DNA of 64,000 nt from Escherichia coli (lineage in GTDB: Bacteria; Pseudomonadota; Gammaproteobacteria; Enterobacterales; Enterobacteriaceae), in NCBI RefSeq assembly GCF_965641715.1, contig NZ_OZ282455.1. One strand, written 5' to 3'. Every line of letters starts with the position of its first letter. Within the stretch, counting starts at the first letter, position 1. Of this stretch, positions 31,316 to 47,295 are shown piece after piece. The notes beneath the pieces are model-generated. The model ran no database searches and had not been told where the DNA came from. It saw only the letters and a program-made list of their open reading frames with translations. The position numbers were made by a program, and so were the translations under genes.

Positions 31316-31752
31316 CAGCGTAACTCCCGCGTCCTGTGTATCACGTGAGTGACAACACCAAAAATACAGATGTTTTCCGGATACAGTGTGCGGAACTCCG
31401 GGCTGTCTGAAACCGGCTCCAGTGCCGGGCGTGGGCGCAACAGCAGTCGTTTGACGGTGAACTCACCGTCGATCTCAGCGATAACGATGTCCCCGTGTTG
31501 TGGTTTTTCGGCCCTGTCCACTACCAGCAGATCACCATTCTGCACGCCAGCCTGGTTCATCGATTCACCGCTGGCGCGCAGAAAGAAGGTGGCTGCAGGT
31601 CTGCTGATGCAATAGCTGTTCAGATCCAGTTCCTGCTCAGCATAATCAGTGGCAGGCGAAGGAAAACCGGCCTGGCAACGATCGGCAAACAACGGTCGCA
31701 CGTAACTGTCATCGCCTGAAGGGTCAGCCGGACGGTGATAAACGGTACTCAT
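31315..31752 (-). CDS. umuD: UmuD/ImpA/MucA family protein (LexA-like self-cleaving)
   Basis: 145 aa with S24 peptidase signature ...RASGESMNQAGVQNGDLLVVD...; coupled to umuC. Confidence 0.9.
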   Translation of the reverse strand: MSTVYHRPADPSGDDSYVRPLFADRCQAGFPSPATDYAEQELDLNSYCISRPAATFFLRASGESMNQAGVQNGDLLVVDRAEKPQHGDIVIAEIDGEFTVKRLLLRPRPALEPVSDSPEFRTLYPENICIFGVVTHVIHRTRELR

Positions 31753-31997
31753 GCTGCAGGCAGCCAGCTGTCGTCCTGCCAGATTTCTTCCAGCAGAGAC
31801 AGGATACGTTCTTTATCCTTGTCGTTGCGGGCTCCTGTGACAGATACAGACGGGGCGCTGCCCTGGTCTATACGCAGCCAGATTTCCGGGTAGTGTGGTT
31901 TCAGACGTTGTTCGATTTCATTCTGTAGCGCCTGAAGTGTGCCTGATTTGAGGTTTTTTGTGCTCTGGCGGTCGAAAAGAATTTCAATGCGGATCAT
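31749..31997 (-). CDS. dinI: DinI-like protein (ImpC-like)
   Basis: 82 aa from MIRIEILFDRQSTKNL...; first gene of dinI-umuD-umuC-like operon as in IncI1 impCAB. Confidence 0.75.
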   Translation of the reverse strand: MIRIEILFDRQSTKNLKSGTLQALQNEIEQRLKPHYPEIWLRIDQGSAPSVSVTGARNDKDKERILSLLEEIWQDDSWLPAA

Positions 31998-32020
31998 GTT
32001 CTCATCTCCCTTTTCTATTG

Positions 32021-32036
32021 CTGTATGCATATACAG
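32021..32036. promoter_or_regulatory. LexA (SOS) box upstream of dinI/umuDC-like operon
   Basis: CTGTATGCATATACAG = CTGT-N8-ACAG palindrome, 24 bp upstream of ATG at 31997. Confidence 0.8.
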
Positions 32037-32390: not shown

Positions 32391-33317
32391 ATGCCAAACT
32401 GGTGCTCGAATCGTATGTATTTTTCTGGTGAACCGGCACAGATCGCTGAGATTAAACGACTGGCCAGCGGCGCAGTCACACCGTTTTATCGCCGCGCCAC
32501 AAATGAAGGTATTCAGCTGTTTCTGGCCGGAAGTGCCGGACTTCTGCAGACCACTGAAGATGTGCAGTTTGAACCGTGCCCCGGACTGACGGCTGCCGGA
32601 CGTGGTGTTGTATCGCCGGAGAATATCGCGTTCACACGCTGGCTGACACACCTGCAGAACGGTGTGCTACTGGATGAACAAAACTGCCTGATGCTGCATG
32701 AACTCTGGCTGCAGAGCGGTACTGGACAGCGTCGCTGGGAAGGATTACCGGACGATGTCAGGGATACCATCACCGCACTTTTCACCGCAAAAAGAGGTGA
32801 CTGGTGTGGCTTCTGGAGTAACGAGGATGTATCGGTGTGGTGGAACCGTCTTTGTGACAACGTACTGCCGGAAAAAACCATGCCGTTTGACCTGCTGACG
32901 GTTCTGCCCACCCGCCTGGATGTTGAAGTGAATGGCTTTAACGGTGGTGTTCTGAACGGTGTTCCTTCTGCATATCACTGGTATACGGAACAGTATGGCG
33001 TGAAGTGGCCTGTGGGGTATGAGGTGAATATCAGCAGTCAGGGAGACAACTTCATTCAGGTTGATTTCGACACGCCGTGGTGTCAGCCGGAAAGCGACGT
33101 TATTGCAGAATTAAGCCGCCGTTTCAGCTGCACGCTGGAGCACTGGTATGCCGAACAGGGCTGTGATTTCTGTGGCTGGCAGTTGTATGAGCGCGGAGAG
33201 CTCGTTGATGTGCTGTGGGGGGAACTGGAATGGTCTTCCCCGACAGATGACGATGAGCTGCCGGAAGTCACCGGACCTGCGTGGATAGTCGACAATGTGG
33301 CGCATTATGGCGGATGA
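32391..33317 (+). CDS. conserved plasmid hypothetical protein
   Basis: 308 aa from MPNWCSNRMYFSGE... with RBS GAGGAG upstream; Cys/Trp-rich. Confidence 0.45.
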   Translation: MPNWCSNRMYFSGEPAQIAEIKRLASGAVTPFYRRATNEGIQLFLAGSAGLLQTTEDVQFEPCPGLTAAGRGVVSPENIAFTRWLTHLQNGVLLDEQNCLMLHELWLQSGTGQRRWEGLPDDVRDTITALFTAKRGDWCGFWSNEDVSVWWNRLCDNVLPEKTMPFDLLTVLPTRLDVEVNGFNGGVLNGVPSAYHWYTEQYGVKWPVGYEVNISSQGDNFIQVDFDTPWCQPESDVIAELSRRFSCTLEHWYAEQGCDFCGWQLYERGELVDVLWGELEWSSPTDDDELPEVTGPAWIVDNVAHYGG

Positions 33318-33700
33318 AGTATGACGGAGACGGGCGGGAAACCGCCCGTTTCTTTTCCGACAAAGGATGTCGCCGTGCTCCTCTTTTTACTGCGCCGGCT
33401 GACGCGGCGCGGCATAAACGCTGCCTGTGGTCAGTGTCCCGCGTCCGGCGGGCACGGGACGGGCGCTTTTACCGCTCCCGGCTGGCGTCGGTGACAGTGT
33501 ACGCCAGCCCGTCGCCCTTTTCTGATGAACGCCCTTCAAGCCGCTTTCGCGGCATAACCTCGCCGTCAAAAAGACGACGGCTGCGGTATTCCACGGTCGG
33601 CCTGACCCGTTACCGGACGCGGTGAACAGCCCACAGGCAGCGGGGAACGGGCGCCACAGGGGTGCCCTCCCGGTGCCCTCTGTAAGAGAAGGAGTTTTGT

Positions 33701-34384
33701 ATGTCCCGTTTTATCCAGGGTAACTGCGTGCGTGTTATGGCCACGTTTCCGGGCAATGCTGTCGATTTCATCCTTACCGACCCGCCATATCTCGTCGGTT
33801 TTCGTGACCGACAGGGGCGTACCATCGCCGGCGATAAAACCGATGAATGGCTGCAACCGGCCTGTAATGAAATGTACCGCGTACTCAAAAAAGACGCGTT
33901 AATGGTGAGCTTCTATGGCTGGAACCGCGTCGATCGCTTTATGGCCGCCTGGAAAAATGCGGGATTCAGCGTGGTTGGCCACCTGGTCTTCACCAAAAAC
34001 TACACATCGAAGGCCGCATATGTGGGCTATCGCCACGAATGCGCCTACATCCTGGCAAAAGGCCGTCCACGTCTGCCACAAAACCCGCTGCCGGACGTGC
34101 TGGGCTGGAAATATTCAGGCAATCGCCATCACCCGACGGAAAAGCCCGTTACCAGCCTGCAACCGCTGATTGAGAGCTTCACACACCCGAACGCAATTGT
34201 GCTGGACCCGTTTGCAGGCAGCGGCTCAACCTGCGTCGCCGCCCTCCAGTCCGGACGCCGGTATATCGGTATCGAGCTGCTTGAGCAGTATCACCGTGTC
34301 GGGCAGCAACGCCTTGCCGCCGTGCAACGGGCCATGCAGCAGGGGGCCGCGAATGATGACTGGTTTATGCCGGAGGCTGCGTAA
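33701..34384 (+). CDS. orphan DNA methyltransferase (DPPY-motif, N6-adenine/N4-cytosine type)
   Basis: ...VDFILTDPPYLVG... and ...LDPFAGSGST... (AdoMet-binding); no adjacent restriction endonuclease gene. Confidence 0.8.
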   Translation: MSRFIQGNCVRVMATFPGNAVDFILTDPPYLVGFRDRQGRTIAGDKTDEWLQPACNEMYRVLKKDALMVSFYGWNRVDRFMAAWKNAGFSVVGHLVFTKNYTSKAAYVGYRHECAYILAKGRPRLPQNPLPDVLGWKYSGNRHHPTEKPVTSLQPLIESFTHPNAIVLDPFAGSGSTCVAALQSGRRYIGIELLEQYHRVGQQRLAAVQRAMQQGAANDDWFMPEAA

Positions 34385-34606
34385 ATGAACTATGCCGGAC
34401 ACGAAAAACTTCGCGCCGAAGTGGCGGAGGTGGCCAATGCCATGTGTGACCTGCGTACAACCATGAATGAGATGGAGCGGCGGTACAGCTTTAATGCTGA
34501 CACCCTGCCGGAACGTCTGGTGCGTCAGACGTTGTTTCGCGCAAACCGCCTCCTGATGGAGGCATATACCGAAATTCTTGAACTGGATGCGTGCTTCAAA
34601 GATTAA
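34385..34606 (+). CDS. hypothetical small protein
   Basis: 73-aa ORF immediately after MTase stop. Confidence 0.35.
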   Translation: MNYAGHEKLRAEVAEVANAMCDLRTTMNEMERRYSFNADTLPERLVRQTLFRANRLLMEAYTEILELDACFKD

Positions 34607-34618
34607 GGAGGAGACGAA

Positions 34619-35053
34619 ATGTACGGAACATGCGAAACGCTCTGCCGTGAGCTGGCAGCAAAGTATCCGGGAAACACGCCGCTGATGCTGCTTATCTGGT
34701 CCCCGGAAGAGATTCAGGCACTGGCCGACGGTATGGAAATTTCTCTGACCGATCATGAAATCAGGACTGTCCTGGCGCACCTGGAGGACATCCCGGAAGA
34801 CCAGCGGACTGAGTCCGGTATTTCTTCCGCCGCGGCGATGGAGATTATCAGCAACGTGAGCGAAAACCGCCTGGTGACCGTCCCTGCTGAACTGCTGGCG
34901 TCCCTGATTCAGACCGCTGAACAGGCACTGTGGAAACGTGAATGGGCCGCCCGTGATAACGGCCTTGCCGTCCCGGAATGTGTTACCCGCCGTCAGGCAG
35001 TGATTAATCAGGCCCGCACCCTGCTGAAAAACAACACACACGAAAACAACTGA
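34619..35053 (+). CDS. DUF1380-like leading-region protein
   Basis: 144 aa; paralogous to ORF 36762-37184 (shared ...[13 protein letters not shown].../...RQVTVPAVMLEKV...). Confidence 0.45.
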
Positions 35054-35103
35054 TGTTATCGCCGCCTGCCCTGCGGGCGGCGATACAGGGAGAACGCTTA
35101 ATC

Positions 35104-35874
35104 ATGAACAAAACGCTGAATGCACTGGTTTGTCGTCACGCCCGTAACCTGCTGCTGGCGCAGGGCTGGCCGGAAGAGACGGATGTTGACCAGCGAAATC
35201 CGAACTATCCGGGCTGGATCAGCATTTACGTGCGGCTGGATGCGCCCCGGCTGGCGACGTTACTTATCAACCGTCACGGCGGCGTACTGCCGCCGCTCCT
35301 GGCCTCCGCCATTCAGAGACTGACCGGAACCGGGGCGGAACTGGTACTGTCCGGCAGTCAGTGGCAATCGCTGCCGGTACTTCCGGCAGACGGAACGCAG
35401 GTGTCTTTCCCGTATGCCGGAGAATGGCTGACCGAAGACGAAATCAGGGCTGTTCTTGATGCGGTGCACGATGCGGTACGAAGCATCTGTTACCAGGTGG
35501 CAGACGATGCGCGGCGTATCCGTGCGGCGCTGACCACCACCGGTCAGACGTTGCTGACCCGCCAGACGCGCCGCTTTCGCCTGGTCGTGAAGGAAAGCGA
35601 TCACCCCTGCTGGCTCGATGAAGATGACGAAAACCTGCCCGTGGTGCTCGATGCCATCGTGAACCGGGGAGCACGTTTTTCGTCGGTGGAAATGTACCTG
35701 GTCAGCGATTGTATTGAGCATATCCTGTCCAGTGGGCTGGCCTGCGATGTGCTGCGTATACCTGATGAATCGCCCCGCCGCTGGTTTGACCGTGGTGTTC
35801 TGCGGGAGGTGGTCCGGGAAGCCCGGACCGAAATCCGCAGCATGGCGGATGCCCTGGCAAAAATCCGGAAATGA
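35104..35874 (+). CDS. hypothetical protein
   Basis: ORF from MNKTLNALV...; 256 aa. Confidence 0.4.
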
Positions 35875-35930
35875 TGACACTGGCGGGGAAAATCCCCGCC
35901 TTTTTCCTGCCGGTCCCCGGACAGAGCACA

Positions 35931-36280
35931 AAGGAAGTCGCCGCCGGCTCCGCTTTACCCGGCCATGCAGAGCATGGCCTTGTGGTTTTCAGTTATGTGG
36001 CCTCAGCGTCGTGTGCGGGCTGTGCCGTGCCTCCATCTTAGCCGGGCTGGCGTTGATGCAAGGGTACGCTTCGCCGCTGCGGTCACCCGGTCCCTCCTTC
36101 CCGTCTGCCGTGATTTTCCGGTCGTTCACCCGCTCAGATTTCGCGGTCTCACCCTCCAACTCCCGCCAGCCGTGTGCGTCAGGCTGCGGCTTCCCTTGCG
36201 CCCCTGCATCCCCGCCTTATCGCCCGGCTTTTCTGGAGGCACGGCACCGCCCGGTGTCGCGGAATATGTGAACAACGGAG
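35931..36280. repeat. leading-region dispersed repeat, family A copy 1 (ssDNA-promoter/Frpo-like candidate)
   Basis: ~350 bp nearly identical to 42876-43225; GC-rich with internal hairpins; immediately upstream of klcA. Confidence 0.6.
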
Positions 36281-36289
36281 GAAAACATC

Positions 36290-36715
36290 ATGCAATATGC
36301 GAAACCTGTCACTCTGAACGTTGAAGAGTGCGACCGTTTGTCTTTTCTGCCTTACCTGTTTGGCCAGGATTTTCTGTATGCCGAAGCGTCTGTATACGCG
36401 CTGGCGAAACAAATGATGCCGGAATATGAAGGCGGATTCTGGCACTTCATCCGCCTGCCGGACGGTGGCGGTTACATGATGCCGGACGGTGACCGTTTCC
36501 ACATGGTGAACGGTGCAAACTGGTTTGACCGTACCGTGAGTGCTGATGCCGCAGGCATCATCCTTACCTCCCTTGTGATTAACCGCCAGTTGTGGCTGTA
36601 CCACGACAGCGGGGATGCAGGACTGACCCAGCTTTACCGGATGCGCGATGCGCAGTTGTGGCGTCACATCGAATTTCACCCTGAATGCAACGCGATTTAC
36701 GCAGCACTGGACTGA
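36290..36715 (+). CDS. klcA: antirestriction protein KlcA/ArdB family
   Basis: 141 aa [25 protein letters not shown]... ; size and position typical of KlcA/ArdB. Confidence 0.6.
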
Positions 36716-36761
36716 TTAACGGACGGGGCGGCAATGCCGCCCCTGTAAAGGAGACGAGAAC

Positions 36762-37184
36762 ATGTACTGTACTGTTAAAGAAATTATCCGTGATGTACTG
36801 GATACAGACGTGCCGGACAGTGAATGCGTTTTTGCCGTGGTGCTGACCCGTGGGGATGTGCGTCACATAGCCCAGGACTGGAGTCTGACAGACGATGAGC
36901 TGGAAACCGTCATGCAGCGGCTGGACGATGCCTTTGAATATGGTGCGGATGTCAGCGTTGTTCACGGCGTTGTTCGTGAACTGATGGAAGAAAAGCGCGC
37001 CAGCCGTCAGGTGACAGTCCCGGCGGTGATGCTGGAAAAAGTGATGGCGCTGGCAGGCAGTGAAATGAAGCGCCTGTATGCCGTCGGGAGTGAGAACGGG
37101 GGCGACGGTGACGCATTCGTCAGGGAGGAACGCGAAGCAATGGACGTTGTGTTACAGGCGCTGGACGGGGAGACGATGTCATGA
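36762..37184 (+). CDS. DUF1380-like leading-region protein (paralog of 34619-35053)
   Basis: 140 aa; shared motif with 34619-35053. Confidence 0.45.
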   Translation: MYCTVKEIIRDVLDTDVPDSECVFAVVLTRGDVRHIAQDWSLTDDELETVMQRLDDAFEYGADVSVVHGVVRELMEEKRASRQVTVPAVMLEKVMALAGSEMKRLYAVGSENGGDGDAFVREEREAMDVVLQALDGETMS

Positions 37185-37372
37185 ATATCAGCACAGAAAC
37201 CCGCGAAATTCTGCGCAATTACAAAGCCGTGATTAATGCGCGGCGTCGTGAAATGGGGCAGAAACCGCTCACCACTGCGCAGATTGTTGATGAAATCTGC
37301 GATTTTGTGGCGAATCAGCAGGCGGTTTTCCTCGGTGGTCACTATATCCTTCAGGGCAGCAGAAACAGGTGA
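37181..37372 (+). CDS. hypothetical small protein
   Basis: 63 aa; ATG overlaps upstream stop (ATGA). Confidence 0.35.
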   Translation: MNISTETREILRNYKAVINARRREMGQKPLTTAQIVDEICDFVANQQAVFLGGHYILQGSRNR

Positions 37373-37574
37373 TACAGGGCAGGCGGTAGAGGCCGCCTGT
37401 CAGCCCGCGCGAAAACCCCTGGCAGGCTGACGCCTGCCGGAAATGCGGGGTGCAGCGCCTGCGGCGCTGCCGGCCCGGCTTTCCGGTCAGAAGGTAGTGT
37501 ATGGCTGTATGCAGGGAACAGGTGTGATATTCCGTGACACTGTCACTGTTTCTGGCTGTCTTTTATTGCGCCCA

Positions 37575-38075
37575 CTTCGGCTCCCGGCTGCCTGGCGGCA
37601 TCCGGTCGTCAGGCCCGACTCCGACAGGCAGCTGCTGGCGCACCCGCCAGTCTCCGCCGAACCCGCTGGCGCGGTTTCGGGCTGCCGCTACGGTCCGATG
37701 CGTGAAAACCCGGCTTGCAGCGACCGTTCCGGTCGCGCCGCCCCTGTCGCGCCGTGACCTGCGCTCCCTGCACACCTGACGGTGTGTGAGGAAACTGCGC
37801 CTGATGGCGCAGCAGTCTTCCCTCCTGCCGCCACCCCTGCGGCCTGTTTCCCGCTGTGGACTTTCCGGGGGGCAGACGTAACCCCCTCCCGTTCCATCTG
37901 TCCAGGGTGAGATGCACCGGCCACAAAATTTTTAGCCATGAACCCGGCTAAAAATTTTGCGTCCGCCCCCGGACAGCTGTCCCGTGAGGCGGTAAACGGG
38001 CCCCCATCGGAAAGGTCCACTGCGGGGAGAAACCCCTGTGAAGTGGACGGCAGGAGGAGCTTTCGCTCCTCTGAA
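37575..38075. repeat. leading-region dispersed repeat, family B copy 1 (ssDNA-promoter/Frpo-like candidate)
   Basis: ~500 bp highly similar to 43919-44415 and partly to 46950-47295; immediately upstream of ssb. Confidence 0.6.
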
Positions 38076-38140
38076 GGGGCACATGAACGTCCCGTCGCCG
38101 GTATCCGGTTTATCTCACATCTTTCAGTCAGGAGGTTCTT

Positions 38141-38668
38141 ATGAGTGCACGTGGTATCAACAAGGTCATCCTCGTCGGGCGTCTGGGCAATGATCCGGAA
38201 GTCCGTTACATCCCCAACGGGGGCGCAGTGGCAAACCTGCAGGTGGCCACATCAGAAAGCTGGCGTGACAAACAGACGGGGGAGATGCGGGAGCAGACGG
38301 AATGGCACCGCGTGGTGCTGTTCGGCAAGCTCGCGGAAGTGGCAGGTGAATATCTGTGCAAGGGTGCGCAGGTCTACATCGAAGGTCAGCTTCGCACCCG
38401 TAGCTGGGAAGATAACGGTATCACCCGTTACGTCACTGAAATTCTTGTTAAGACCACGGGCACCATGCAGATGCTGGGGAGTGCACCACAGCAGAACGCT
38501 CAGGCGCAACCGAAGCCTCAGCAGAATGGGCAGCCACAGAGTGCTGACGCGACGAAAAAAGGTGGCGCGAAAACGAAAGGCCGTGGACGTAAGGCCGCGC
38601 AGCCCGAGCCTCAGCCGCAACCGCCGGAGGGGGAGGATTACGGGTTTTCAGACGATATCCCGTTCTGA
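38141..38668 (+). CDS. ssb: plasmid single-stranded DNA-binding protein
   Basis: [33 protein letters not shown]... OB-fold N-terminus; acidic tail ...DDIPF. Confidence 0.95.
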
Positions 38669-38686
38669 CTGGCCTGACTGTGATAA

Positions 38687-38959
<273 letters not shown>

Positions 38960-39011
38960 GAGAGGTGCCGGACGCGCGAACGTCCGGCAGGACATAAGCA
39001 ATTATAAGGGG

Positions 39012-40976
39012 ATGATTATGCCTGTAACGAAGTGTGAACCAGAAACCACCCGCAAAGCAAGCCGTAAATCTGCAAAAACGCAGGAAACAGTCCTGTCTGC
39101 CCTGCTGGCGCAGACGGAGGAAGTGAGCGTGCCGCTGGCCTCACTGATTAAGTCACCGCTGAATGTGCGCACGGTGCCGTATTCTGCGGAGTCCGTCAGC
39201 GAACTGGCAGGGTCCATTCAGGGCGTCGGACTGCTGCAGAATCTGGTCGTGCATACCCTGCCTGGTGAGCGCTACGGTGTCGCCGCAGGTGGTCGCAGAC
39301 TGGCAGCACTCAATATGCTGGCTGAGCGTGGAATCATTCCGGCTGACTGGCCTGTCCGCGTGAAAATTATTCCGCAGGAACTGGCGACGGCTGCATCGAT
39401 GACCGAGAACGGTCATCGCCGGGATATGCACCCTGCCGAACAGATTGCCGGATTCCGCGCAATGGCGCAGGAAGGCAAAACAGCGGCACAAATCGGTGAT
39501 TTGCTGGGCTATTCACCCCGCCACGTTCAGCGAATGCTGAAACTGGCAGACCTTGCGCCTGTCATCCTTGATGCGCTGGCAGAAGACCGCATCACCACAG
39601 AGCACTGTCAGGCGCTGGCGCTGGAGAACGACACCGCGCGTCAGGTGCAGGTGTTTGAAGCTGCCTGTCAGTCGGGATGGGGCGGAAAACCGGAAGTACA
39701 GACCATTCGTCGTCTGGTGACCGAAAGTGAAGTGGCGGTGGCGGGGAACACTAAATTCCGCTTCGTGGGGGCTGATGCCTTCTCGCCAGATGAACTGCGC
39801 ACTGATTTGTTCAGCGACGATGAGGGTGGCTATGTGGACTGTGTTGCGCTCGATGCCGCCCTGCTGGAAAAACTCCAGGCTGTTGCAGAGTACCTTCGGG
39901 AAGCTGAGGGCTGGGGATGGTGTGCCGGACGCATGGAGGCCGTTGGTGAGTGCCGTGAAGATGCCCAGGCATACCGCAACCTGCCGCAGCCGGAAGCAGT
40001 GCTGACGGAGGCGGAAGAAGAACGCCTGAACGAACTGATGGCACGTTACGACGCACTGGAAAACCAGTGTGAGGAATCTGACCTGCTGGAAGCAGAAATG
40101 AAGCTGATGCGCTGCATGGCGAAGGTCAGAGCGTGGACGCCGGAGATGCGTGCCGGAAGCGGTGTGGTGGTGTCCTGGCGTTATGGCAACGTGTGTGTCC
40201 AGCGTGGTGTGCAGTTGCGCAGCGAGGATGACGTGGCTGACGACGCTGACCGCACGGAACAGATGCAGGAGAAAGCGTCAGTGGAGGAAATCAGTCTGCC
40301 ACTGCTGACGAAAATGTCTTCCGAACGCACGCTGGCAGTCCAGGCGGCACTCATGCAGCAACCGGACAAATCTCTGGCACTGCTGGCATGGACGCTCTGC
40401 CTGAATGTGTTTGGCAGCGGGGCGTACAGTAGTCCCGCCAGAATTTACCTGGAATGTGGGCATTACTCACTGACCAGCGCTGCGCCGTCAGGGAAGGAAG
40501 GTACCGCATTCATGGCGCTGATGGCAGAGCACTTTCGCCTTGCTGCCCTGCTGCCGGATGAATGGGAACGGGACATGACGACGTTCCTGTCACTCAGCCA
40601 GGAGGTGCTGTTATCCCTGCTCAGTTTCTGCACTGCATGCAGCATCCACGGCGTTCAGACCCGTGAGTGTGGTCACACGTCACGCAGTCCGCTGGACTCG
40701 CTGGAAACCGCCATCGGCTTTCACATGCGCGACTGGTGGCAGCCGACAAAAGCAAACTTCTTCGGACACCTGAAAAAGCCGCAGATTATCGCAGCCCTGA
40801 ATGAGGCAGGACTGTCCGGTGCCGCACGGGACGCGGAGAAGATGAAGAAAGGTGATGCGGCTGAACATGCAGAGCACCATATGAAAGACAACCGCTGGGT
40901 TCCAGGCTGGATGTGTGCACCACATCCACAGACAGATGCCACTGAACGCACCGATAACCTGGCTGATGCCGCCTGA
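39012..40976 (+). CDS. ParB-like nuclease domain protein (leading region)
   Basis: ~654 aa; N-terminal ParB/Srx-like region ...LIKSPLNVRTV...GLLQNLVVHTLPGERYGVAAGGRRLAALNM... Confidence 0.7.
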   Translation: MIMPVTKCEPETTRKASRKSAKTQETVLSALLAQTEEVSVPLASLIKSPLNVRTVPYSAESVSELAGSIQGVGLLQNLVVHTLPGERYGVAAGGRRLAALNMLAERGIIPADWPVRVKIIPQELATAASMTENGHRRDMHPAEQIAGFRAMAQEGKTAAQIGDLLGYSPRHVQRMLKLADLAPVILDALAEDRITTEHCQALALENDTARQVQVFEAACQSGWGGKPEVQTIRRLVTESEVAVAGNTKFRFVGADAFSPDELRTDLFSDDEGGYVDCVALDAALLEKLQAVAEYLREAEGWGWCAGRMEAVGECREDAQAYRNLPQPEAVLTEAEEERLNELMARYDALENQCEESDLLEAEMKLMRCMAKVRAWTPEMRAGSGVVVSWRYGNVCVQRGVQLRSEDDVADDADRTEQMQEKASVEEISLPLLTKMSSERTLAVQAALMQQPDKSLALLAWTLCLNVFGSGAYSSPARIYLECGHYSLTSAAPSGKEGTAFMALMAEHFRLAALLPDEWERDMTTFLSLSQEVLLSLLSFCTACSIHGVQTRECGHTSRSPLDSLETAIGFHMRDWWQPTKANFFGHLKKPQIIAALNEAGLSGAARDAEKMKKGDAAEHAEHHMKDNRWVPGWMCAPHPQTDATERTDNLADAA

Positions 40977-41027
40977 TGAACAACCACACCGCCCCGCCGG
41001 AGACGGGGCGGCAGCAAGGGAGATACC

Positions 41028-41465
41028 GTGATGAAAACTGAACTGACCCTGAATGCCCTGCAGTCCATGAACGCACAGGAATATGAAGATATCCGTGCTG
41101 CGGGAAGCGATATGCGCCGTAATCTCACTCACGAGGTGATGCGTGAAGTGGACGCACCGGCTAACTGGATGATGAATGGCGAGTATGGCAGTGAGTTCGG
41201 GGGCTTTTTCCCCGTCCAGGTTCGTTTCACGCCAGCCCACGAACGTTTCCACCTGGCATTATGTTCGCCGGGAGACGTCTCTCAGCTCTGGATGCTGGTT
41301 CTGGTGAATTGTGGTGGACAGCCTTTCGCCGTCGTTCAGGTGCAACATATCTTCACGCCTGTCGCTATCAGTCACACGCTGGCGCTTGCCGCGACACTTG
41401 ATGCGCAGGGGTACAGTGTTAACGACATCATCCATATCCTGATGGCAGAAGGAGGTCAGGCATGA
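41028..41465 (+). CDS. psiB: plasmid SOS inhibition protein PsiB
   Basis: (M)[27 protein letters not shown]... matches PsiB. Confidence 0.9.
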
Positions 41466-42181
41466 GCGCACGTTCACGGGCACTGATCCCCCTCAGCGCA
41501 GAGCAACAGGCCGCCATGCAGGCTGTGGCTGTCACCGAACAACGTCGTCGTCAGGGACGCACACTTTCAGCATGGCCTTATGCCAGCGCTTTCTTTCGCT
41601 GCCTGAATGGCAGTCGCCGGATTTCGCTGACCGATCTCCGCTTTTTTGCTCCTGCGCTGACGAAGGAGGAATTTCATGGCAACCGTCTCCTGTGGCTGGC
41701 TGCCGTGGATAAACTGATTGAAAGTTTTGGTGAAGTCTGTGTTCTTCCCCTGCCATCCGATGCGGGGCATCGTCTGTTCCCGTCCGTTCCTTTTCGTGAA
41801 GGTGAGCGGCGTCGTCAGAAAACCACGCTGACAGAGCAGAAATACAGCCGCCAGCGGGAACGTGAGGCAGAACGACGGGAACTGGAATACCAGACATGTT
41901 TTGCTCAGGCGCAGATTGACCTTGCGTTTCATACTCCCGCCACGGTCGGAAGCTGGTTGTCCCGCTGGTCTGGTGTTGTTGAGGAGCATGATCTGGAAAC
42001 GATTTTCTGGGGGTGGTGCGGGCGTTTTCCATCACTGTCATCATTTGACCGGTTTTTCTGGCAGGAGGAACCACTCTGGCGGCTGATTTTTGAAGCCGGT
42101 GAGGCCGGTCGTGGTGCACCGGTACAGGTACGTGCACTTGAGCAGTGGATGATCCCGAACAAGCTGGAGAACGCAATATGA
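41462..42181 (+). CDS. psiA: plasmid SOS inhibition protein PsiA
   Basis: 239 aa, overlaps psiB stop; [22 protein letters not shown]... Confidence 0.85.
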
Positions 42182-42774
42182 TGAAATCAGACGAACAATA
42201 TCACGTTCCCGTGTGGATGCGACCTCTGTTGCCGTTGCTCTGCAATACCGGTGGTAATGATCCGGAGGAACTGCTGAATGATACAGAAACCACCGCCAGT
42301 GCGAATATTGTCCGTTATGTACTGATAGTTGCAGTGCGGTCGCAGATTGATCTGCTGCAGCTACTGTACAGGAAAGGACTGTTGCGCACAGAGATACCAG
42401 GTGGCTTTTCACCGGAAGAAGCGCAGGAACTCCTGGATAATCTGGTGCGCAGCCATATCAGCAAGGCGCTGTCGGGTGAGCGAATGGCAGCCCGTGACAG
42501 AAATGCCGATCTGACCTGGATTCGCCAGCAACTGGTCGATGCCGCCTGGTTTGTCCGTGCCACACTGGAAGCGCATGGGATGGGCGTCGGAAATGAGAGT
42601 CCCTCTGCTCCGCCGGAGACAATGCCGGACATACAGACACGGGAACTGGTTATGTTGATCAAGCGACTGGCATCATCGCTGAAAGCGGTGAAACCCGACA
42701 GTAGCGTGGTGCGTGAAGCGCAGGACTGGCTGTGCGACAGAAAACTTGTGGATATCACAGATATTCTCCGGTGA
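42178..42774 (+). CDS. hypothetical protein
   Basis: ORF from [13 protein letters not shown]..., start overlaps psiA stop. Confidence 0.4.
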   Translation: MMKSDEQYHVPVWMRPLLPLLCNTGGNDPEELLNDTETTASANIVRYVLIVAVRSQIDLLQLLYRKGLLRTEIPGGFSPEEAQELLDNLVRSHISKALSGERMAARDRNADLTWIRQQLVDAAWFVRATLEAHGMGVGNESPSAPPETMPDIQTRELVMLIKRLASSLKAVKPDSSVVREAQDWLCDRKLVDITDILR

Positions 42775-42875
42775 ACCAGACATGTATATTTTACGCAGGG
42801 ACACGCCGATCATGATCGTTTCATATCAGGGGTGGTCTGGAGGTCATGCGGCGTGTCCTCTGCACTCGCCGGAAT

Positions 42876-43225
42876 AAGGAAGTCGCCGGCGGCTCCGCTT
42901 TTACCCGGCCATGCGGGGCATGGCCTTGTGGGTTTTCAGCTCTGTGGCCTCAGCGTCGTGTGCGGGCTGTGCCGTGCCTCCATCTTAGCCGGGCTGGCAG
43001 GGATGCAAGGGTACGCTTCGCCGCTGCGGTCACCCGGTCCCTCCTTCCCGTCTGCCGTGATTTTCCGGTCGTTCACCCGCTCAGATTTCGCGGTCTCACC
43101 CTCCAACTCCCGCCAGCCGTGTGCGTCAGGCTGCGGCTTCCCTTGCGCCCTGTGCATCCCCGCCTTATCGCCCGGCTTTTATGGAGGCACGGCACCGCCC
43201 GGTGCCGCAGAACATGTGACTATGG
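42876..43225. repeat. leading-region dispersed repeat, family A copy 2
   Basis: Near-identical to 35931-36280; immediately upstream of ardA. Confidence 0.6.
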
Positions 43226-43236
43226 AGGATTCGGGA

Positions 43237-43737
43237 ATGTCTGTTGTTGCACCTGCTGTATACGTTGGAACCTGGCACAAATACAACTGTGGAAGTATCG
43301 CCGGACGCTGGTTTGACCTGACCACGTTTGATGATGAGCGCGACTTTTTCGCCGCCTGCCGTGCTCTTCACCAGGATGAAGCCGATCCTGAACTGATGTT
43401 TCAGGATTATGAGGGATTCCCGGGGAATATGGCCTCTGAATGCCATATCAACTGGGCCTGGGTTGAAGGCTTCCGCCGGGCACGGGATGAAGGCTGCGAA
43501 GAGGCTTATCGTCTCTGGGTGGATGATACCGGTGAGACGGATTTTGACACCTTCCGCGATGCCTGGTGGGGCGAGGCTGACAGTGAGTAGGCTTTTGCGG
43601 TTGAGTTCGTCAGTGATACCGGCCTGCTGGCTGACGTGCCGGAGACGGTGGCGCTCTATTTTGACTATGAGGCGTATGCGCGGGATTTATTCCTGGACTC
43701 CTTCACCTTTATTGACGGTCATGTGTTCCGTCGGTGA
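43237..43737 (+). pseudogene. ardA: antirestriction protein ArdA interrupted by in-frame amber codon (TAG at 43588-43590)
   Basis: N-terminal 117 codons [28 protein letters not shown]... ; after TAG the same frame continues 48 codons AFAVEFVSDTGLLADVPETVALYFDYEAYARDLFLDSFTFIDGHVFRR to TGA at 43735-43737 (total 166 codons = ArdA length). Confidence 0.75.
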
Positions 43738-43918
43738 TTTACTCCCCCGCTCCGGCGGGGGTATGGCCTGCCAGGCCGCCGGAAAACCCTGGCAGGCTTA
43801 CGCCTGCCTGAAATGCAGGAGGGCCGCGCCTGCGGCGCTGCCCTTCCTGCCCGTCATGGTGTGAGGCATTTTTCTGTTATGTCGTTTCTGTTGTTCTGAT
43901 TTCCGGAGGCGGGGACAC

Positions 43919-44415
43919 CTTCGGCTCCCGGCTGCCTGGCGGCATCCGGTCGTCAGGCCCGACTCCGACAGGCAGCTGCTGGCGCACCCGCCAGTCTCCG
44001 CCGAACCCGCTGGCGCGGTTTCGGGCTGCCGCTACGGTCCGATGTCTGAAAAACCAGGCTTGCAGCGACCGTTCCGGTCGCGCCGCCCCTGTCGCGCCGG
44101 AAACGGCGCTCCCTGCACACCTGACGGTGTGTAAGGCCACTGCGCCTGATGGCGCAGTCAACCCTTCCGCCGCCACCCCTGCGGCCTGTTTCCCGCTGTG
44201 GACTTTCCGGGGGCTGGAGTAACCACATCCCGTTTCAGCAGTCTAGGGGAAGATATACCGTCCACAAAATTTTTAGCCATAAACCCGGCAAAAAATTTTG
44301 CGTCCGCCCCCGGACAGCTGCCCCGTGACGTGGTGACGGACGCCCCATCGGAAAGGTCCACTGCGGGGAGAAACCCCGAAGAAGTGGACGGCAGAAGGGG
44401 CTTTCGCCCCTCCGG
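43919..44415. repeat. leading-region dispersed repeat, family B copy 2
   Basis: Highly similar to 37575-38075; upstream of ORF 44466. Confidence 0.6.
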
Positions 44416-44465
44416 GGAGCAACCGGTCGGCCCGGCGACCTGATTCAGCAGAAGGAGACGTTTTC

Positions 44466-44900
44466 ATGACAGTCAGCAGCACGATTTCCGTTTTTTGCCG
44501 CGACGGGGTGTTCCGTACCGTTTACTGCCACCTGCACGGGGAGCCGACCTGGAACGGTCGCATCCTGCATACCCACTATGCCACCGGTCAGCAGGCCGAA
44601 GCCCTGGTTGAACACGGTGATATCCGTTGCCTCGGTCCCCGTTGCGACAAACCCGCCGGGCATACGCTTCAGAACCCGGTGGACGGTGTGACGGCTTATT
44701 ACGGACGTGACAGTGGTTTCCGGATGGACAGTGAGGCGCGTGAGTACCGTTCTTTCAGGGAGGCTATTGCCACTGAAAGCACTGAAGAGGTGCGCTTCCA
44801 TTATGTGTTCATCGACGGCTACTGGAAGGTGATGTACCGCACGCCGGAAGGCTGGAAGATGAAAGCGCTCGCGCTGGCACTGCGTCGCTGTCCGAAATGA
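44466..44900 (+). CDS. hypothetical protein
   Basis: 144-aa ORF with RBS GAAGGAGA upstream. Confidence 0.4.
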   Translation: MTVSSTISVFCRDGVFRTVYCHLHGEPTWNGRILHTHYATGQQAEALVEHGDIRCLGPRCDKPAGHTLQNPVDGVTAYYGRDSGFRMDSEAREYRSFREAIATESTEEVRFHYVFIDGYWKVMYRTPEGWKMKALALALRRCPK

Positions 44901-44993
44901 AAAAAAGGCAGGGCGATAAACCCTGCCTCTCTCCGCCGGCGCTTCCCCGCCAGGAAGTCCGGCATCTCAATCACTATCTATGGAGATTATGCC

Positions 44994-45260
44994 ATGAGAC
45001 CATCAATTATCTTCGCAACCGCCGAGTATGTAAAGCGTCTGCGTGAAGAGTGCCTGCGGGAGAATAAACCCCTGCACCGCCATACCCGCTTCAGACGTCA
45101 GGAGCTGGCACAGGATGAGATTAACCCGGACGTCCTGGCGATGAGCGGCCATATCGCCAGACGCTGCAGTGAGCAGAAGCGGGTGCGTATCCCCGCTATG
45201 AAAGTCAGCGAATGGGGCCACCTGCTCCGCGCGCTTGAAATTGAGCGGGTCTGCCACTGA
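44994..45260 (+). CDS. hypothetical protein
   Basis: 88-aa ORF. Confidence 0.35.
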   Translation: MRPSIIFATAEYVKRLREECLRENKPLHRHTRFRRQELAQDEINPDVLAMSGHIARRCSEQKRVRIPAMKVSEWGHLLRALEIERVCH

Positions 45261-45324
45261 TTAACCCTTGCCGTCTGCCTGTGCAGGCGGCAGGATACGT
45301 TCAGACATCTCACCAGGAGGAACC

Positions 45325-46251
45325 GTGAGTAAGAAGAAAACCACCACGACGCCCACGCCGCATGATGCCGCGTTCCGGTCGTTCCTGGCGAATCCCGACG
45401 TCGCCAGAGATTTTCTGGAACTGCATCTTCCGGCGGAGTACCGGCAGTTGTGCGACCTGTCCACGCTGAAGCTGGAACCCGCCACCTTTGTTGAGCCGGA
45501 CCTGCATCAGTACGCCAGCGATATCCTCTGGAGTGTGAAAACCACCGGGGGTGAAGATGGCTATGTTTATACGCTCATCGAGCACCAGAGCACCGAAAAT
45601 CTGTACATGCCTTTCCGCATGTTACGTTACAGTGTGGCGGCGATGCAGAGACATCTGGAGCAGCACAAAACGTTGCCACTGGTCATTCCGGTGCTGTTCT
45701 ATCACGGTGAGCGCAGCCCGTACCCGTACAGCATGAACTGGCTGGACTGTTTTGAGAATCCGGCGCTTGCGGCTAAAATATACACAAAGCCGTTTCCGCT
45801 GGTTGATATCACTGTCGTTGATGACAATGAAATCATGAACCATCGCCGGATGGCCGCACTGACGCTGCTGATGAAGCATATCCGCCATCGTGACATGATG
45901 GAGCTGCTGGACAAACTCCCGCAGGTCATGGTGGAAATTTCAGACGAGCAGGTGCGTGTTCTGATTCATTACATCGTTAACGCAGGGGACTCTGTATCAC
46001 CGGAATTTATGCGGGCGCTGGCTGAGCGTCTGCCGCAGCATGAGGATAAACTGATGACTATCGCAGAACGTCTTGAGCAAAAAGGTCGCCAGGAAGGCAG
46101 GATGGAAGGACGCATGGAAGGACGCATGGAAGGAGCGCTTGAAAAAGCCCTGGCTATTGCGTGCCAGCTTCAGAAAATGGGGATGACGCCGGAGCAGATT
46201 AAGCAGGCTACCGGACTTTCCGATGACGAACTGAAGAAAATCACTCACTGA
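45325..46251 (+). CDS. Rpn (YhgA-like) family recombination-promoting nuclease / putative transposase
   Basis: GTG start after AGGAGG; ...FRSFLANPDVARDFLELHLP...YTLIEHQS... PDDEXK-type Rpn core; C-terminal tandem RMEG repeats. Confidence 0.7.
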   Translation: MSKKKTTTTPTPHDAAFRSFLANPDVARDFLELHLPAEYRQLCDLSTLKLEPATFVEPDLHQYASDILWSVKTTGGEDGYVYTLIEHQSTENLYMPFRMLRYSVAAMQRHLEQHKTLPLVIPVLFYHGERSPYPYSMNWLDCFENPALAAKIYTKPFPLVDITVVDDNEIMNHRRMAALTLLMKHIRHRDMMELLDKLPQVMVEISDEQVRVLIHYIVNAGDSVSPEFMRALAERLPQHEDKLMTIAERLEQKGRQEGRMEGRMEGRMEGALEKALAIACQLQKMGMTPEQIKQATGLSDDELKKITH

Positions 46252-46753: not shown

Positions 46754-46949
46754 AAAACACCTTTAAAAAAGTGAAAAAACTTCACTTTATTTTATCATCA
46801 TAATCACCAAATTAACGCGATAAATAAGTGTGAAAAAGTGAAGAAATTTCACTTTTTTTGCTTGTAAATGTCGTGCGGTTTTCTCTGTTTTCACCTGTGC
46901 GGGAGTGGTGTGCCAGTGACCACCACATGCCATTGTTGTGCCGTCGTTT

Positions 46950-47295
46950 TTCTTCAGTCGCGCCGTATGCGGCGCTCCCTGCACACCTTACGGTGTGTAA
47001 GGCCACTGCGCCTGATGGCGCAGCTGTCTCTGCCTGTCTGCCGCCGCACTGCGGCCTGTTCTCCGCAGACGGACTTTCCGGGGGTACATACATGACCACA
47101 TCCCGTTTCAGTCGTCCAGGGGAGAGATGTACCAGCCACAAAACTTTTTGCCGCAGGCGTCAAAAACTTTTGCGTCTGCCCCCGGACAACTGCCCCGTGA
47201 CGTGGTGAGCGTCCCCCGTCGGAAAGGTCCACTGCGGGGAAATCCCCGAAGACCCGGACGGCAGAAGGAGCTTCGCTCCTCCGGGAAATGACCTG
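46950..47295. repeat. leading-region dispersed repeat, family B copy 3 (shorter)
   Basis: Shares ~350 bp core with copies at 37575 and 43919; upstream of ORF 47330. Confidence 0.55.

What the first reader, a model, noticed from the sequence alone, without database searches (positions are those of the whole stretch)
33701..43737. Leading region packed with anti-defence functions in a single transfer-first orientation
An orphan DPPY methyltransferase with no partner endonuclease, KlcA/ArdB, SSB, a ParB-like nuclease, PsiB/PsiA and ArdA are all on the plus strand, so the transferred minus strand is their template, consistent with expression from ssDNA on entry. Two DUF1380-like paralogs (34619-35053 and 36762-37184) and several small ORFs of unknown function are interleaved and are candidates for further anti-restriction or anti-CRISPR functions.
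Basis: partly seen in the sequence, partly recalled or inferred. Interest (0 to 1): 0.4.

Follow-up and report, generated by a model that had tools for sequence, protein, structure and literature searches.

The report
Known IncI plasmid leading region
This is the well-studied "leading region" of an IncI/K-type conjugative plasmid, the first DNA to enter a recipient cell, carrying known anti-restriction, anti-SOS and methylase genes. It is ordinary, except that its ardA anti-restriction gene carries a rare premature stop codon.

Summary
Window 33701-43737 differs by one base from IncI-gamma/K1 plasmid pRKI3099a. It is collinear at about 96% with the leading region of IncI1 plasmid pESBL and, from the methylase to psiA, with F. 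All annotated genes there are on the + strand. The oriT nick motif (about 48743/48744) lies on the minus strand, so the minus strand enters first and is their template. Six structured intergenic segments are 96-99.7% identical to the six pESBL single-strand promoters whose start sites were mapped (Wen 2025).

- **Methylase:** 91% identical to M.EcoGIX.
- **"ParB-like nuclease":** 92% identical to F YfjB/HerB, a CTP-binding clamp that reprograms host transcription. No nuclease evidence exists.
- **ardA:** That is 0 of 3,221 complete records, with one draft assembly sharing it.
- **Unknown ORFs:** under purifying selection but still of unknown function.

Verdict: already known, low interest.

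The parts
30044..32030 (-). impB/impA/impC (umuC/umuD/DinI-like) genes: distal boundary of the leading-region island
   Evidence: Annotation of pRKI3099a mapped to the window (locus position + 18700). Samuel 2024 describes umuCD homologues as the usual boundary.
32415..33317 (+). DUF1281 (YubB/Api92-like) protein, acidic (net charge -26)
   Evidence: Pfam DUF1281 3.8e-50 and DUF1281_C 1.8e-15; net charge; dN/dS 0.29 against pESBL.
33310..33700 (-). Class 3 single-strand promoter hairpin (forms on the transferred minus strand) driving the MTase operon. The annotated ORF 33314-33625 inside it is probably spurious.
   Evidence: The minus-strand DNA fold has z -6.47. It is 96.9% identical to the pESBL segment and 96.4% to F. 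The class 3 promoter start site was mapped in pESBL. The ORF's dN/dS is 2.8.
33701..34384 (+). Orphan N6-adenine DNA methyltransferase, an M.EcoGIX orthologue (YfbB of R64, YfeA of F)
   Evidence: Pfam N6_N4_Mtase 1.3e-40; NCBIfam NF010253 5e-150; 91% identical to pESBL M.EcoGIX; DPPY and FAGSG motifs intact.
34385..34606 (+). Conserved 73-aa protein of unknown function (pESBL Hp9)
   Evidence: 98.6% identical to pESBL, dN/dS 0.04; phrog_4830, function unknown.
34619..35053 (+). DUF1380 protein, paralogue a (pESBL Hp10)
   Evidence: Pfam DUF1380 1.6e-50; dN/dS 0.23. The AlphaFold2 model is all-helical with pLDDT 88 and has no PDB match at E<=0.001.
35104..35874 (+). YchA-like 256-aa protein of unknown function (pESBL Hp11), followed by a terminator-like hairpin at 35882-35900
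   Evidence: phrog_8919 3.4e-136, function unknown; dN/dS 0.27; terminator scan. All listed homologues are at least 82% identical.
35875..36289 (-). Class 2 single-strand promoter hairpin upstream of klcA/ardB
   Evidence: Direct repeat shared with 42931-43219 (98%); minus-strand fold z -2.8; 96.4% identical to pESBL and 96.1% to F; class 2 defined.
36290..36715 (+). KlcA/ArdB anti-restriction protein
   Evidence: Pfam Antirestrict 2.2e-26; 96.5% identical to pESBL KlcA/ArdB.
36762..37184 (+). Distant DUF1380 paralogue b, strongly acidic (net -16, pI 4.3)
   Evidence: Pfam DUF1380 6.4e-5, 23.5 bits against a cut-off of 26; 24% identical to paralogue a, E 1e-7; charge; dN/dS 0.29.
37181..37372 (+). 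Conserved 63-aa protein of unknown function
   Evidence: Same protein accession (WP_001027495.1) annotated in pRKI3099a, pESBL and F; against pESBL, 3 synonymous and 0 non-synonymous differences.
37373..38140 (-). Class 1 (ssi/Frpo-type) single-strand promoter hairpin upstream of ssb
   Evidence: Repeat family with 43780-44412 and 46916-47217; minus-strand fold z -8.6; 99.3% identical to pESBL, with partial matches to two F segments; class 1 = ssi1-3/Frpo.
38141..38668 (+). Plasmid single-stranded-DNA-binding protein
   Evidence: Pfam SSB 1.7e-36; C-terminal DDIPF tail visible in the translation.
38726..38959 (+). DUF905 protein (YfjA-like)
   Evidence: Pfam DUF905 1.6e-33; annotated start.
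39018..40976 (+). ParB-like CTP-binding protein, orthologue of F YfjB/HerB (not a demonstrated nuclease)
   Evidence: ParB_N and HTH_ParB domains. It is 92% identical to F YfjB over 652 aa, with R94, E130, R168, R172 and K175 conserved. HerB function is from preprint PMC13370423.
41031..42181 (+). psiB (41031-41465) and psiA (41462-42181), the SOS-inhibition pair
   Evidence: Pfam PsiB 8.7e-57 and PsiA 1.4e-41.
42178..42774 (+). YgaA-like 198-aa protein of unknown function (pESBL Hp15)
   Evidence: No Pfam or NCBIfam hit; weak hits to PHROGs of unknown function; dN/dS 0.25.
42775..43236 (-). Class 2 single-strand promoter hairpin upstream of ardA
   Evidence: Minus-strand fold z -4.9; 97.2% identical to pESBL.
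43237..43737 (+). ardA with a premature amber codon at 43588-43590 (E118*). The predicted product is 117 aa and lacks most of domain 3.
   Evidence: Translations and alignment; both Pfam ArdA halves detected separately. The allele is absent from 1,896 PLSDB and 1,325 RefSeq E. coli records. It is present in GCA_965259455.1.
43738..44465 (-).
   Evidence: Minus-strand fold z -8.8; 99.7% identical to pESBL.
44466..46251 (+). Operon of a 144-aa and an 88-aa unknown protein plus an Rpn/YhgA-like nuclease (45325-46251), followed by a terminator-like hairpin at 46263-46283
   Evidence: Pfam Transposase_31 1.6e-78 for Rpn; dN/dS 0.05-0.16; terminator scan.
46754..47332 (-). Class 1 single-strand promoter hairpin nearest oriT
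   Evidence: Minus-strand fold z -9.1; 97.9% identical to pESBL.
47333..48181 (+). DUF4942 protein (YdiA/YgfB-like), a possible second methyltransferase and the first + strand gene to enter
   Evidence: Annotation; phrog_6263 'DNA methyltransferase' 5.5e-17; listed as a methyltransferase-like family enriched in leading regions.
48735..48800 (-). oriT core: minus-strand nick motif CACATCCTG|TCCCG (predicted nick between 48744 and 48743) next to an inverted repeat at 48753-48790. nikA (48836-49168) and nikB (49179-51878) lie beyond it.
   Evidence: Sequence read; nikA/nikB annotation. The nick-motif assignment rests on my knowledge of IncP/IncI1 nick regions (Furuya and Komano 1991). The direction is corroborated by collinearity with pESBL.

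Best explanation
**What it is.** Window 33701-43737 is the central two-thirds of the leading region of an IncI-gamma/K1 (I-complex) conjugative plasmid with a MOBP NikB relaxase.

**Entry (inferred).** NikB nicks the minus strand at oriT, at about 48743/48744. That strand enters the recipient 5' end first, so the leading region arrives first.

**Expression (inferred from a 96-99.7% identical plasmid).** Six long imperfect hairpins form on the entering single strand and rebuild promoter duplexes. Host RNA polymerase can therefore transcribe six + strand operons before the complementary strand is made.
1. Class 3 promoter: M.EcoGIX-type methylase, a 73-aa protein, DUF1380a and YchA-like.
2. Class 2 promoter: KlcA/ArdB, DUF1380b and a 63-aa protein.
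3. Class 1 promoter: SSB, DUF905, HerB-like ParB, PsiB, PsiA and YgaA-like.
4. Class 2 promoter: ArdA.
5. Class 1 promoter: a 144-aa protein, an 88-aa protein and Rpn.
6. Class 1 promoter: DUF4942.

**What the products do (from published work on homologues).**
- The methylase protects the incoming DNA by promiscuous single-strand adenine methylation.
- KlcA/ArdB and ArdA block type I restriction.
- PsiB with SSB prevents SOS induction.
- HerB reprograms host transcription.
- Expression stops once the DNA becomes double-stranded.

**What differs in this copy.** ardA carries an amber codon, so at best a product of domains 1 and 2 is made.

**What is shown here.** Gene content, orientation, hairpin-forming potential and near-identity to characterised plasmids. 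Activities and single-strand transcription are inferred from homologues.
For: - **Identity and spread.** The interval is one base from pRKI3099a, typed IncI-gamma/K1, MOBP, MPF_I. At least 5,000 plasmid records match it, and 2,605 of them cover 80% or more.
- **Collinearity.** It is collinear with pESBL over 31001-49200 at 96-97% nucleotide identity, and every protein is 87-100% identical. F shares the same gene order from the methylase to psiB.
- **Domains.**
- **Orientation.** The nick motif is on the minus strand next to nikAB.
- **Hairpins.** There are two repeat families plus one singleton in the intergenic regions. Minus-strand DNA folds give z -2.8, -4.9, -6.5, -8.6, -8.8 and -9.1, against -1.1 for a coding control.
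- **Promoter homology.** All six segments are 96-99.7% identical to pESBL segments. In pESBL, RNA-seq showed up to about 500-fold induction at 15 minutes, and 5' RACE mapped six start sites.
- **No ordinary promoter.** No sigma-70-like site lies on the + strand inside the interval.
- **Methylase.** 91% identical to M.EcoGIX. M.EcoGIX methylates SAY on one strand, and its protective effect is lost when oriT is inverted. Its deletion lowers transfer into restricting recipients.
- **HerB.** 92% identical, with functional residues conserved.
- **General rule.** Leading-region anti-defence families are encoded in the orientation transcribable from the transferred strand.
- **Unknown ORFs.** dN/dS is 0.04-0.29 and most have Shine-Dalgarno sequences.
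Against: - Nothing was measured for this plasmid: no transcription, methylation or conjugation data.
- The nick position is assigned from a motif I recall, not from a paper I could read here (one search failed).
- The class 2 hairpin upstream of klcA is only modestly more stable than shuffled sequence: z -2.8, with 1 of 100 shuffles folding as well.
- The ardA amber codon means one of the named anti-restriction functions may be lost or altered here.
- HerB's role rests on a 2026 preprint.
- About half of the genes in the interval have no known function, so 'packed with anti-defence functions' overstates what is established.
Confidence: 0.9

Rival explanations
1. The co-orientation only reflects ordinary operon organisation. 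The genes would be expressed from conventional double-strand promoters after the complementary strand is synthesised, and the structured intergenic repeats would be terminators, priming sites or recombination scars rather than promoters.
For: - Runs of co-oriented genes are common in plasmids.
- Terminator-like hairpins exist at operon ends (35882-35900 and 46263-46283).
- ssi elements were first described as priming sites, and a primer role is still discussed.
- No expression data exist for this plasmid.
Against: - The six segments are 96-99.7% identical to pESBL segments with mapped start sites. Their induction peaks at 15 minutes, decays as the DNA becomes double-stranded, and lasts longer in uvrD recipients.
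- No sigma-70-like + strand site was found in the interval.
- Inverting oriT abolishes MTase-dependent protection in pESBL.
Confidence: 0.04
2. The interleaved unknown ORFs (73-aa, DUF1380a/b, YchA-like, 63-aa, DUF905, YgaA-like) are not anti-restriction or anti-CRISPR proteins. They would serve other establishment tasks, such as host reprogramming, single-strand DNA handling, second-strand synthesis or regulation of the neighbouring genes.
For: - HerB, long assumed to be a ParB-like protein of unclear role, turned out to reprogram host transcription rather than block a defence system.
- The families have no Foldseek match to anti-CRISPR or anti-restriction structures in Samuel 2024's supplementary table.
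- The DUF1380a model has no significant PDB match.
- pESBL transposon sequencing scored these genes as dispensable for transfer to a laboratory E. coli recipient.
Against: - They sit in operons with proven anti-restriction genes and are enriched in leading regions.
- DUF1380b is small and very acidic (net -16), as DNA-mimic inhibitors are.
- Dispensability in a recipient without relevant defences says little.
Confidence: 0.5
3. The ardA stop codon is a sequencing or assembly error, and the plasmid really encodes full-length ArdA.
For: - It is a single-base difference on an otherwise identical 15.4-kb background.
- It is absent from 1,896 PLSDB and 1,325 RefSeq E. coli records and from metagenome contigs.
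Against: - The same TAG with identical flanks occurs in a separate NCBI assembly, GCA_965259455.1. It could be the same strain or lineage.
- A G-to-T substitution is not the typical homopolymer indel error.
Confidence: 0.2

Closest known systems
Leading region of IncI1 plasmid pESBL (E. coli O104:H4; also ColIb-P9 and R64)
   Same: Gene order is the same from DUF1281 to nikB. Nucleotide identity is 96-97% and protein identity 87-100%. The six structured promoter segments fall in the same three classes. The impCAB boundary and the NikAB/oriT arrangement also match.
   Different: The replicon type is IncI-gamma/K1 rather than IncI1. The roughly 460 bp carrying pESBL Hp18 is absent. The methylase is closer to F's version, with 6 non-synonymous differences against 27 for pESBL. 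ardA carries an amber codon.
F plasmid leading region (YfeA methylase to PsiA; Frpo1/Frpo2)
   Same: The module runs in the same order: methylase, 73-aa protein, DUF1380, YchA-like, KlcA, DUF1380, 63-aa protein, SSB, DUF905, YfjB/HerB, PsiB. Class 2 and class 3 segments are about 96% identical, and HerB is 92% identical.
   Different: F uses a MOBF relaxase and a different oriT. Its oriT-proximal part carries hok/sok (flm) and other genes instead of ardA, rpn and DUF4942. Class 1 segments match F's Frpo only in 50-120-nt patches at 74-99% identity.
Anti-defence islands of plasmid leading regions (Samuel et al., Nature 2024)
   Same: The island is bounded by oriT and umuCD homologues. Anti-restriction, methylase, SSB and SOS-inhibitor genes all lie in the orientation transcribable from the transferred strand. 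Frpo-type promoters are present.
   Different: None in kind. No recognised anti-CRISPR gene was found here by family searches.

Membership tests
Plasmid leading-region anti-defence island | Lies next to oriT on the side that enters the recipient first | tested here: met
   The nick motif is on the minus strand at about 48743/48744, with nikAB on the far side. The region is collinear with pESBL, where the transfer direction is established.
Plasmid leading-region anti-defence island | Anti-defence genes oriented so that the transferred strand is their template | tested here: met
   All 17 annotated genes in 33701-43737 are on the + strand, and the transferred strand is the minus strand.
Plasmid leading-region anti-defence island | Contains recognised anti-restriction, methylase, SSB and SOS-inhibitor genes, bounded distally by umuCD-like genes | tested here: met
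   Pfam hits; impCAB at 30044-32030.
Single-strand promoters (class 1 ssi/Frpo, class 2, class 3 of Wen et al. 2025) | A long imperfect hairpin on the transferred strand directly upstream of each induced operon | tested here: met
   Six segments fold with z -2.8 to -9.1, against -1.1 for a coding control.
Single-strand promoters (class 1 ssi/Frpo, class 2, class 3 of Wen et al. 2025) | Sequence homology to elements with mapped transcription start sites | tested here: met
   96-99.7% identity to the six pESBL segments; start sites reported.
Single-strand promoters (class 1 ssi/Frpo, class 2, class 3 of Wen et al. 2025) | Transcription initiates on single-stranded but not double-stranded DNA | not testable with these tools
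   Needs in vitro transcription or RNA-seq of early transconjugants.
M.EcoGIX-type single-strand adenine methyltransferase | Beta-class N6-adenine methylase with a catalytic DPPY motif and an FxGxG SAM-binding motif | tested here: met
   DPPY at residues 27-30 and FAGSG at 171-175; Pfam and NCBIfam hits.
M.EcoGIX-type single-strand adenine methyltransferase | Close sequence relationship to M.EcoGIX and the same leading-region position, with no partner endonuclease | tested here: met
   91% identity over the full length. The gene is in the same position in pESBL and F. No endonuclease family was found in the neighbours.
M.EcoGIX-type single-strand adenine methyltransferase | Promiscuous m6A at SAY on one strand only | not testable with these tools
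   Shown for M.EcoGIX by SMRT sequencing, but not for this protein.
ArdA (DNA-mimic anti-restriction protein) | Match to the ArdA family | tested here: met
   Pfam ArdA 1.6e-14 for residues 1-117 and 1.8e-9 for the fragment after the stop; aligns to PDB 2W82.
ArdA (DNA-mimic anti-restriction protein) | Complete three-domain protein of about 166 aa, including domain 3 (dimer interface) | tested here: not met
   An amber codon at codon 118 removes 49 residues. Domain 3 is residues 104-165 in Orf18 ArdA.
KlcA/ArdB anti-restriction protein | Match to Pfam Antirestrict (PF03230) above its cut-off | tested here: met
   92.3 bits against a cut-off of 25; 96.5% identical to pESBL KlcA/ArdB.
DUF1380 | Pfam PF07128 above its gathering score | tested here: met
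   34619-35053 scores 171.2 bits against a cut-off of 26.
DUF1380 | The second copy (36762-37184) also belongs to the family | tested here: inconclusive
   23.5 bits, below the cut-off of 26; 24% identity, E 1e-7, to the first copy; phrog_9024 1.2e-5. RefSeq names it a DUF1380 family protein.
ParB-like nuclease | ParB N-terminal domain present | tested here: met
   ParB_N 7.2e-7 and HTH_ParB 9.5e-9; PDB sequence matches are Spo0J, ParB and Noc.
ParB-like nuclease | Evidence for nuclease activity | tested here: not met
   The closest characterised relative, F YfjB/HerB (92% identical), is a CTP-binding DNA clamp. The word 'nuclease' does not occur in that study.
HerB (YfjB) host-reprogramming ParB-like protein | Full-length similarity with conserved CTP-binding residues (Box II R94, E130) and HTH residues (R168, R172, K175) | tested here: met
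   92% identity over 652 aa without gaps, and all five residues are conserved.
PsiB/PsiA SOS-inhibition pair | Pfam PsiB and PsiA above their cut-offs, adjacent genes | tested here: met
   191.2 and 142.7 bits; the two ORFs overlap by 4 nt.

The most novel reading that the evidence does not exclude
At least one of the conserved unknown proteins is a new inhibitor of a host defence system, with a fold unlike solved structures. The candidates are DUF1380a, the very acidic DUF1380b, the 73-aa and 63-aa proteins, YchA-like, DUF905 and YgaA-like. All are under purifying selection, and the pESBL homologues of their operons are induced from single-strand promoters. Separately, the natural ardA amber allele might yield an ArdA of domains 1 and 2 that keeps anti-restriction activity but loses anti-modification activity.
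Probability: 0.3. Interest if true: 0.5.

Novelty: already known. Interest (0 to 1): 0.12.

Why it matters
Leading regions decide whether a resistance plasmid survives its first minutes in a new host, so they matter for the spread of antibiotic resistance. This locus adds nothing new in kind. The same module is in thousands of sequenced plasmids, and its logic, promoters and several proteins have been characterised in pESBL, ColIb-P9 and F. Two points have some practical value. First, roughly half of the co-transcribed genes still have no known function and are obvious deletion targets. Second, this copy carries a rare natural nonsense allele of ardA, which could serve as a natural test of what ArdA domain 3 contributes.

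Tried and rejected
- **Rfam.** A scan of 30000-50000 found no known RNA family.
- **Unknown ORFs, family searches.** NCBIfam and PHROGs gave nothing, or only families of unknown function.
- **Unknown ORFs, solved structures.** PDB sequence searches for DUF1380a, YchA-like and YgaA-like gave nothing meaningful.
- **DUF1380a structure.** A good AlphaFold2 model (pLDDT 88, seven helices) had no Foldseek PDB match at E<=0.001. No known anti-restriction or anti-CRISPR fold can therefore be claimed.
- **YchA-like homologues.** All listed hits are at least 82% identical, too shallow for a useful alignment, so I did not fold it.
- **R64 nick site.** I could not read the original paper, and two citing papers did not give the sequence. 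The nick motif therefore rests on my own knowledge.
- **ardA stop as decay.** I considered that the stop signals a decaying region and rejected it. Every other gene is intact with the same length as in pESBL, and dN/dS is low.
- **Truncated ArdA in other assemblies.** Six contigs encode the 117-aa product, but five simply end at a contig end. Only L005 truly carries the TAG.
- **Variant at 33663.** This base in the class 3 promoter is shared with pESBL and is not notable.

Full report
**1. What the sequence is**

The interval 33701-43737 matches at least 5,000 plasmid records, and 2,605 of them cover 80% or more of it. The best match is E. coli plasmid pRKI3099a. It is typed IncI-gamma/K1 with a MOBP relaxase and the MPF_I mating system, and it differs from the interval by one base. 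Window 25124-56760 follows that plasmid at 99.83% identity. The part before 25124 is a different mosaic of Tn3-family, tet(A) and colicin sequences.

The region 31001-49200 is collinear with pESBL-EA11, the IncI1 plasmid of E. coli O104:H4, at 96-97% nucleotide identity. Every protein is 87-100% identical. The F plasmid has the same gene order from the methylase to psiB.

**2. Checking the observation**

Pfam confirms most labels:

| Feature | Coordinates | Pfam result |
|---|---|---|
| Methylase | 33701-34384 | N6_N4_Mtase, 1.3e-40 |
| DUF1380 | 34619-35053 | 1.6e-50 |
| KlcA/ArdB | 36290-36715 | Antirestrict, 2.2e-26 |
| SSB | 38141-38668 | 1.7e-36 |
| ParB-like | 39018-40976 | ParB_N + HTH_ParB |
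| PsiB | 41031-41465 | 8.7e-57 |
| PsiA | 41462-42181 | 1.4e-41 |

- The methylase has intact DPPY and FAGSG motifs. No neighbouring ORF matches an endonuclease family.
- The second DUF1380 (36762-37184) is a distant paralogue. It scores 23.5 bits against a cut-off of 26 and is 24% identical to the first copy, E 1e-7.
- All annotated genes in the interval are on the + strand.

**3. Direction of transfer**

Between a mobC-like gene (48267-48602, minus strand) and nikA (48836-49168) lies the oriT core. The minus strand there reads CACATCCTG|TCCCG, next to an inverted repeat at 48753-48790. From my knowledge of IncP/IncI1 nick regions, this places the nick between 48744 and 48743 on the minus strand. 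I could not read the original paper.

The minus strand would then enter 5' end first, running toward lower coordinates, and it is the template for + strand genes. Collinearity with pESBL corroborates this independently. In pESBL, inverting oriT abolishes methylase-dependent protection, and the same genes are the first to be induced.

**4. How the genes are expressed**

The intergenic regions hold two repeat families and one singleton.
- **Class 1:** about 600 nt at 37373-38140, 43738-44465 and 46754-47332.
- **Class 2:** about 290 nt at 35875-36289 and 42775-43236, directly upstream of klcA and ardA.
- **Class 3:** a unique segment at 33310-33700, upstream of the methylase.

Folded as minus-strand DNA, these segments give z-scores of -8.6, -8.8 and -9.1 (class 1), -2.8 and -4.9 (class 2) and -6.5 (class 3). 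A coding control gives -1.1.

All six segments are 96-99.7% identical to the pESBL segments. Wen et al. 2025 (PMC12672017) classed these as class 1 (ssi1-3/Frpo), class 2 (klcA, ardA) and class 3 (M.EcoGIX) single-strand promoters. In pESBL the downstream genes were induced up to about 500-fold at 15 minutes, and 5' RACE mapped the start sites.

No sigma-70-like site lies on the + strand inside the interval. Terminator-like hairpins close the first and fifth operons.

**5. What the proteins do, from homologues**

- **Methylase.** It is 91% identical to M.EcoGIX. M.EcoGIX methylates adenine at SAY on one strand. Its deletion lowers transfer into EcoRI- or EcoGIII-positive recipients.
- **ParB-like protein.** It is 92% identical over its full length to F YfjB, renamed HerB in a 2026 preprint. 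HerB is a CTP-binding, clamp-like protein that binds the chromosome and reprograms host transcription. The residues shown there to matter (R94, E130, R168, R172, K175) are conserved here. Nothing supports the label 'nuclease'.
- **KlcA/ArdB, PsiB/PsiA and SSB.** These are standard members of their families.

**6.

ardA (43237-43737) has TAG instead of GAG at codon 118 (43588-43590), giving 117 of 166 residues.
- It is the only difference from pRKI3099a across 15.4 kb.
- None of 1,896 PLSDB records or 1,325 RefSeq E. coli records holding this stretch carries it. No metagenome contig carries it either.
- One NCBI draft assembly, GCA_965259455.1, has the same TAG with identical flanks. The allele is therefore probably real but rare.
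- The stop removes most of domain 3. This domain forms the dimer interface and carries the anti-modification activity of Orf18 ArdA, whereas anti-restriction activity was assigned to domains 1 and 2. Whether the truncated protein is stable or active is unknown.

**7. The unknown ORFs**

The unknown ORFs are the 73-aa, DUF1380a/b, YchA-like, 63-aa, DUF905, YgaA-like, 144-aa and 88-aa proteins.
- They have dN/dS of 0.04-0.29 against pESBL and F. Most have good ribosome-binding sites. They are real genes.
- The annotated ORF 33314-33625 lies inside the class 3 hairpin and has dN/dS 2.8, from 1 synonymous and 7 non-synonymous differences. It is probably not a gene.
- Family and structure searches gave no function.
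- DUF1380 is a small family, with 149 representatives among 1.84 billion proteins. A confident model of DUF1380a (pLDDT 88, all-helical) has no significant PDB match.
- Samuel et al. 2024 already list these families among the most prevalent uncharacterised ones enriched in leading regions, with no structural match to known anti-defence proteins.

**8. Verdict**

- Bates 1999, as cited;
- Fomenkov 2020, PMC7736820;
- Samuel 2024, PMC11541004;
- Wen 2025, PMC12672017.

The interval should be extended to about 32.1-48.7 kb. The only unusual feature is the rare ardA nonsense allele. Novelty is 'already known' and interest is low.

Noticed in passing
window 43588-43590: ardA codon 118 is TAG instead of GAG. 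It is the only difference from pRKI3099a across 15.4 kb. It is absent from 3,221 complete plasmid and genome records holding this stretch, but present in draft assembly GCA_965259455.1.
   Followed up: yes
window 33314-33625: A 103-aa 'hypothetical protein' annotated in RefSeq relatives lies entirely inside the class 3 promoter hairpin. It shows 1 synonymous and 7 non-synonymous differences from pESBL (dN/dS 2.8), so it is probably not a gene.
   Followed up: partly
window 47333-48181: The DUF4942 protein is the first + strand gene to enter after oriT and sits behind a class 1 hairpin. It matches a PHROG annotated as a DNA methyltransferase (5.5e-17), so it is a possible second methylase in the leading region.
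   Followed up: partly
window 45260-45325 (pESBL L003 16431-16894): About 460 bp present in pESBL, carrying its Hp18 gene, are missing between the 88-aa ORF and rpn. The two alignment blocks overlap by about 35 bp at the junction.
   Followed up: no
L006, L008, L009, L010 (NCBI draft assemblies) and L007 (ENA metagenome assembly): Five independent short-read assembly contigs all end immediately after ardA codon 117, the position of the SNP. This may be an assembly break caused by co-resident ardA variants. They do not carry the stop codon.
   Followed up: no
L005 (GCA_965259455.1 contig CBDGWI010000044.1) 214-3567: In this draft contig, ardA is followed about 900 nt later by ssb, DUF905 and parB-like, instead of the 144-aa ORF. 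This looks like a join across the class 1 repeat, either a mis-assembly or a real recombinant.
   Followed up: no
proteins P0070 (1991 aa) and P0128 (975 aa): Two very large proteins in the representative library contain DUF1380-like segments, seven stretches in P0128. The domain may therefore occur as a repeat in unrelated giant proteins.
   Followed up: no
window 33701-34384: This methylase is closer to F's version (6 non-synonymous differences) than to pESBL's (27), although the flanking genes are closer to pESBL. This is a sign of mosaic exchange within the shared IncF/IncI module.
   Followed up: partly
window 46502-46984 and 48267-48602: Three annotated minus-strand genes (an HTH regulator, a 65-aa ORF and a mobC-like gene) lie between ardA and oriT. 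The single-orientation rule therefore does not hold for the whole leading region.
   Followed up: no
window 1-25123: The first 25 kb do not follow pRKI3099a. They match a mosaic of Tn3-family transposons, tet(A) and colicin-related sequences found in other E. coli plasmids.
   Followed up: no
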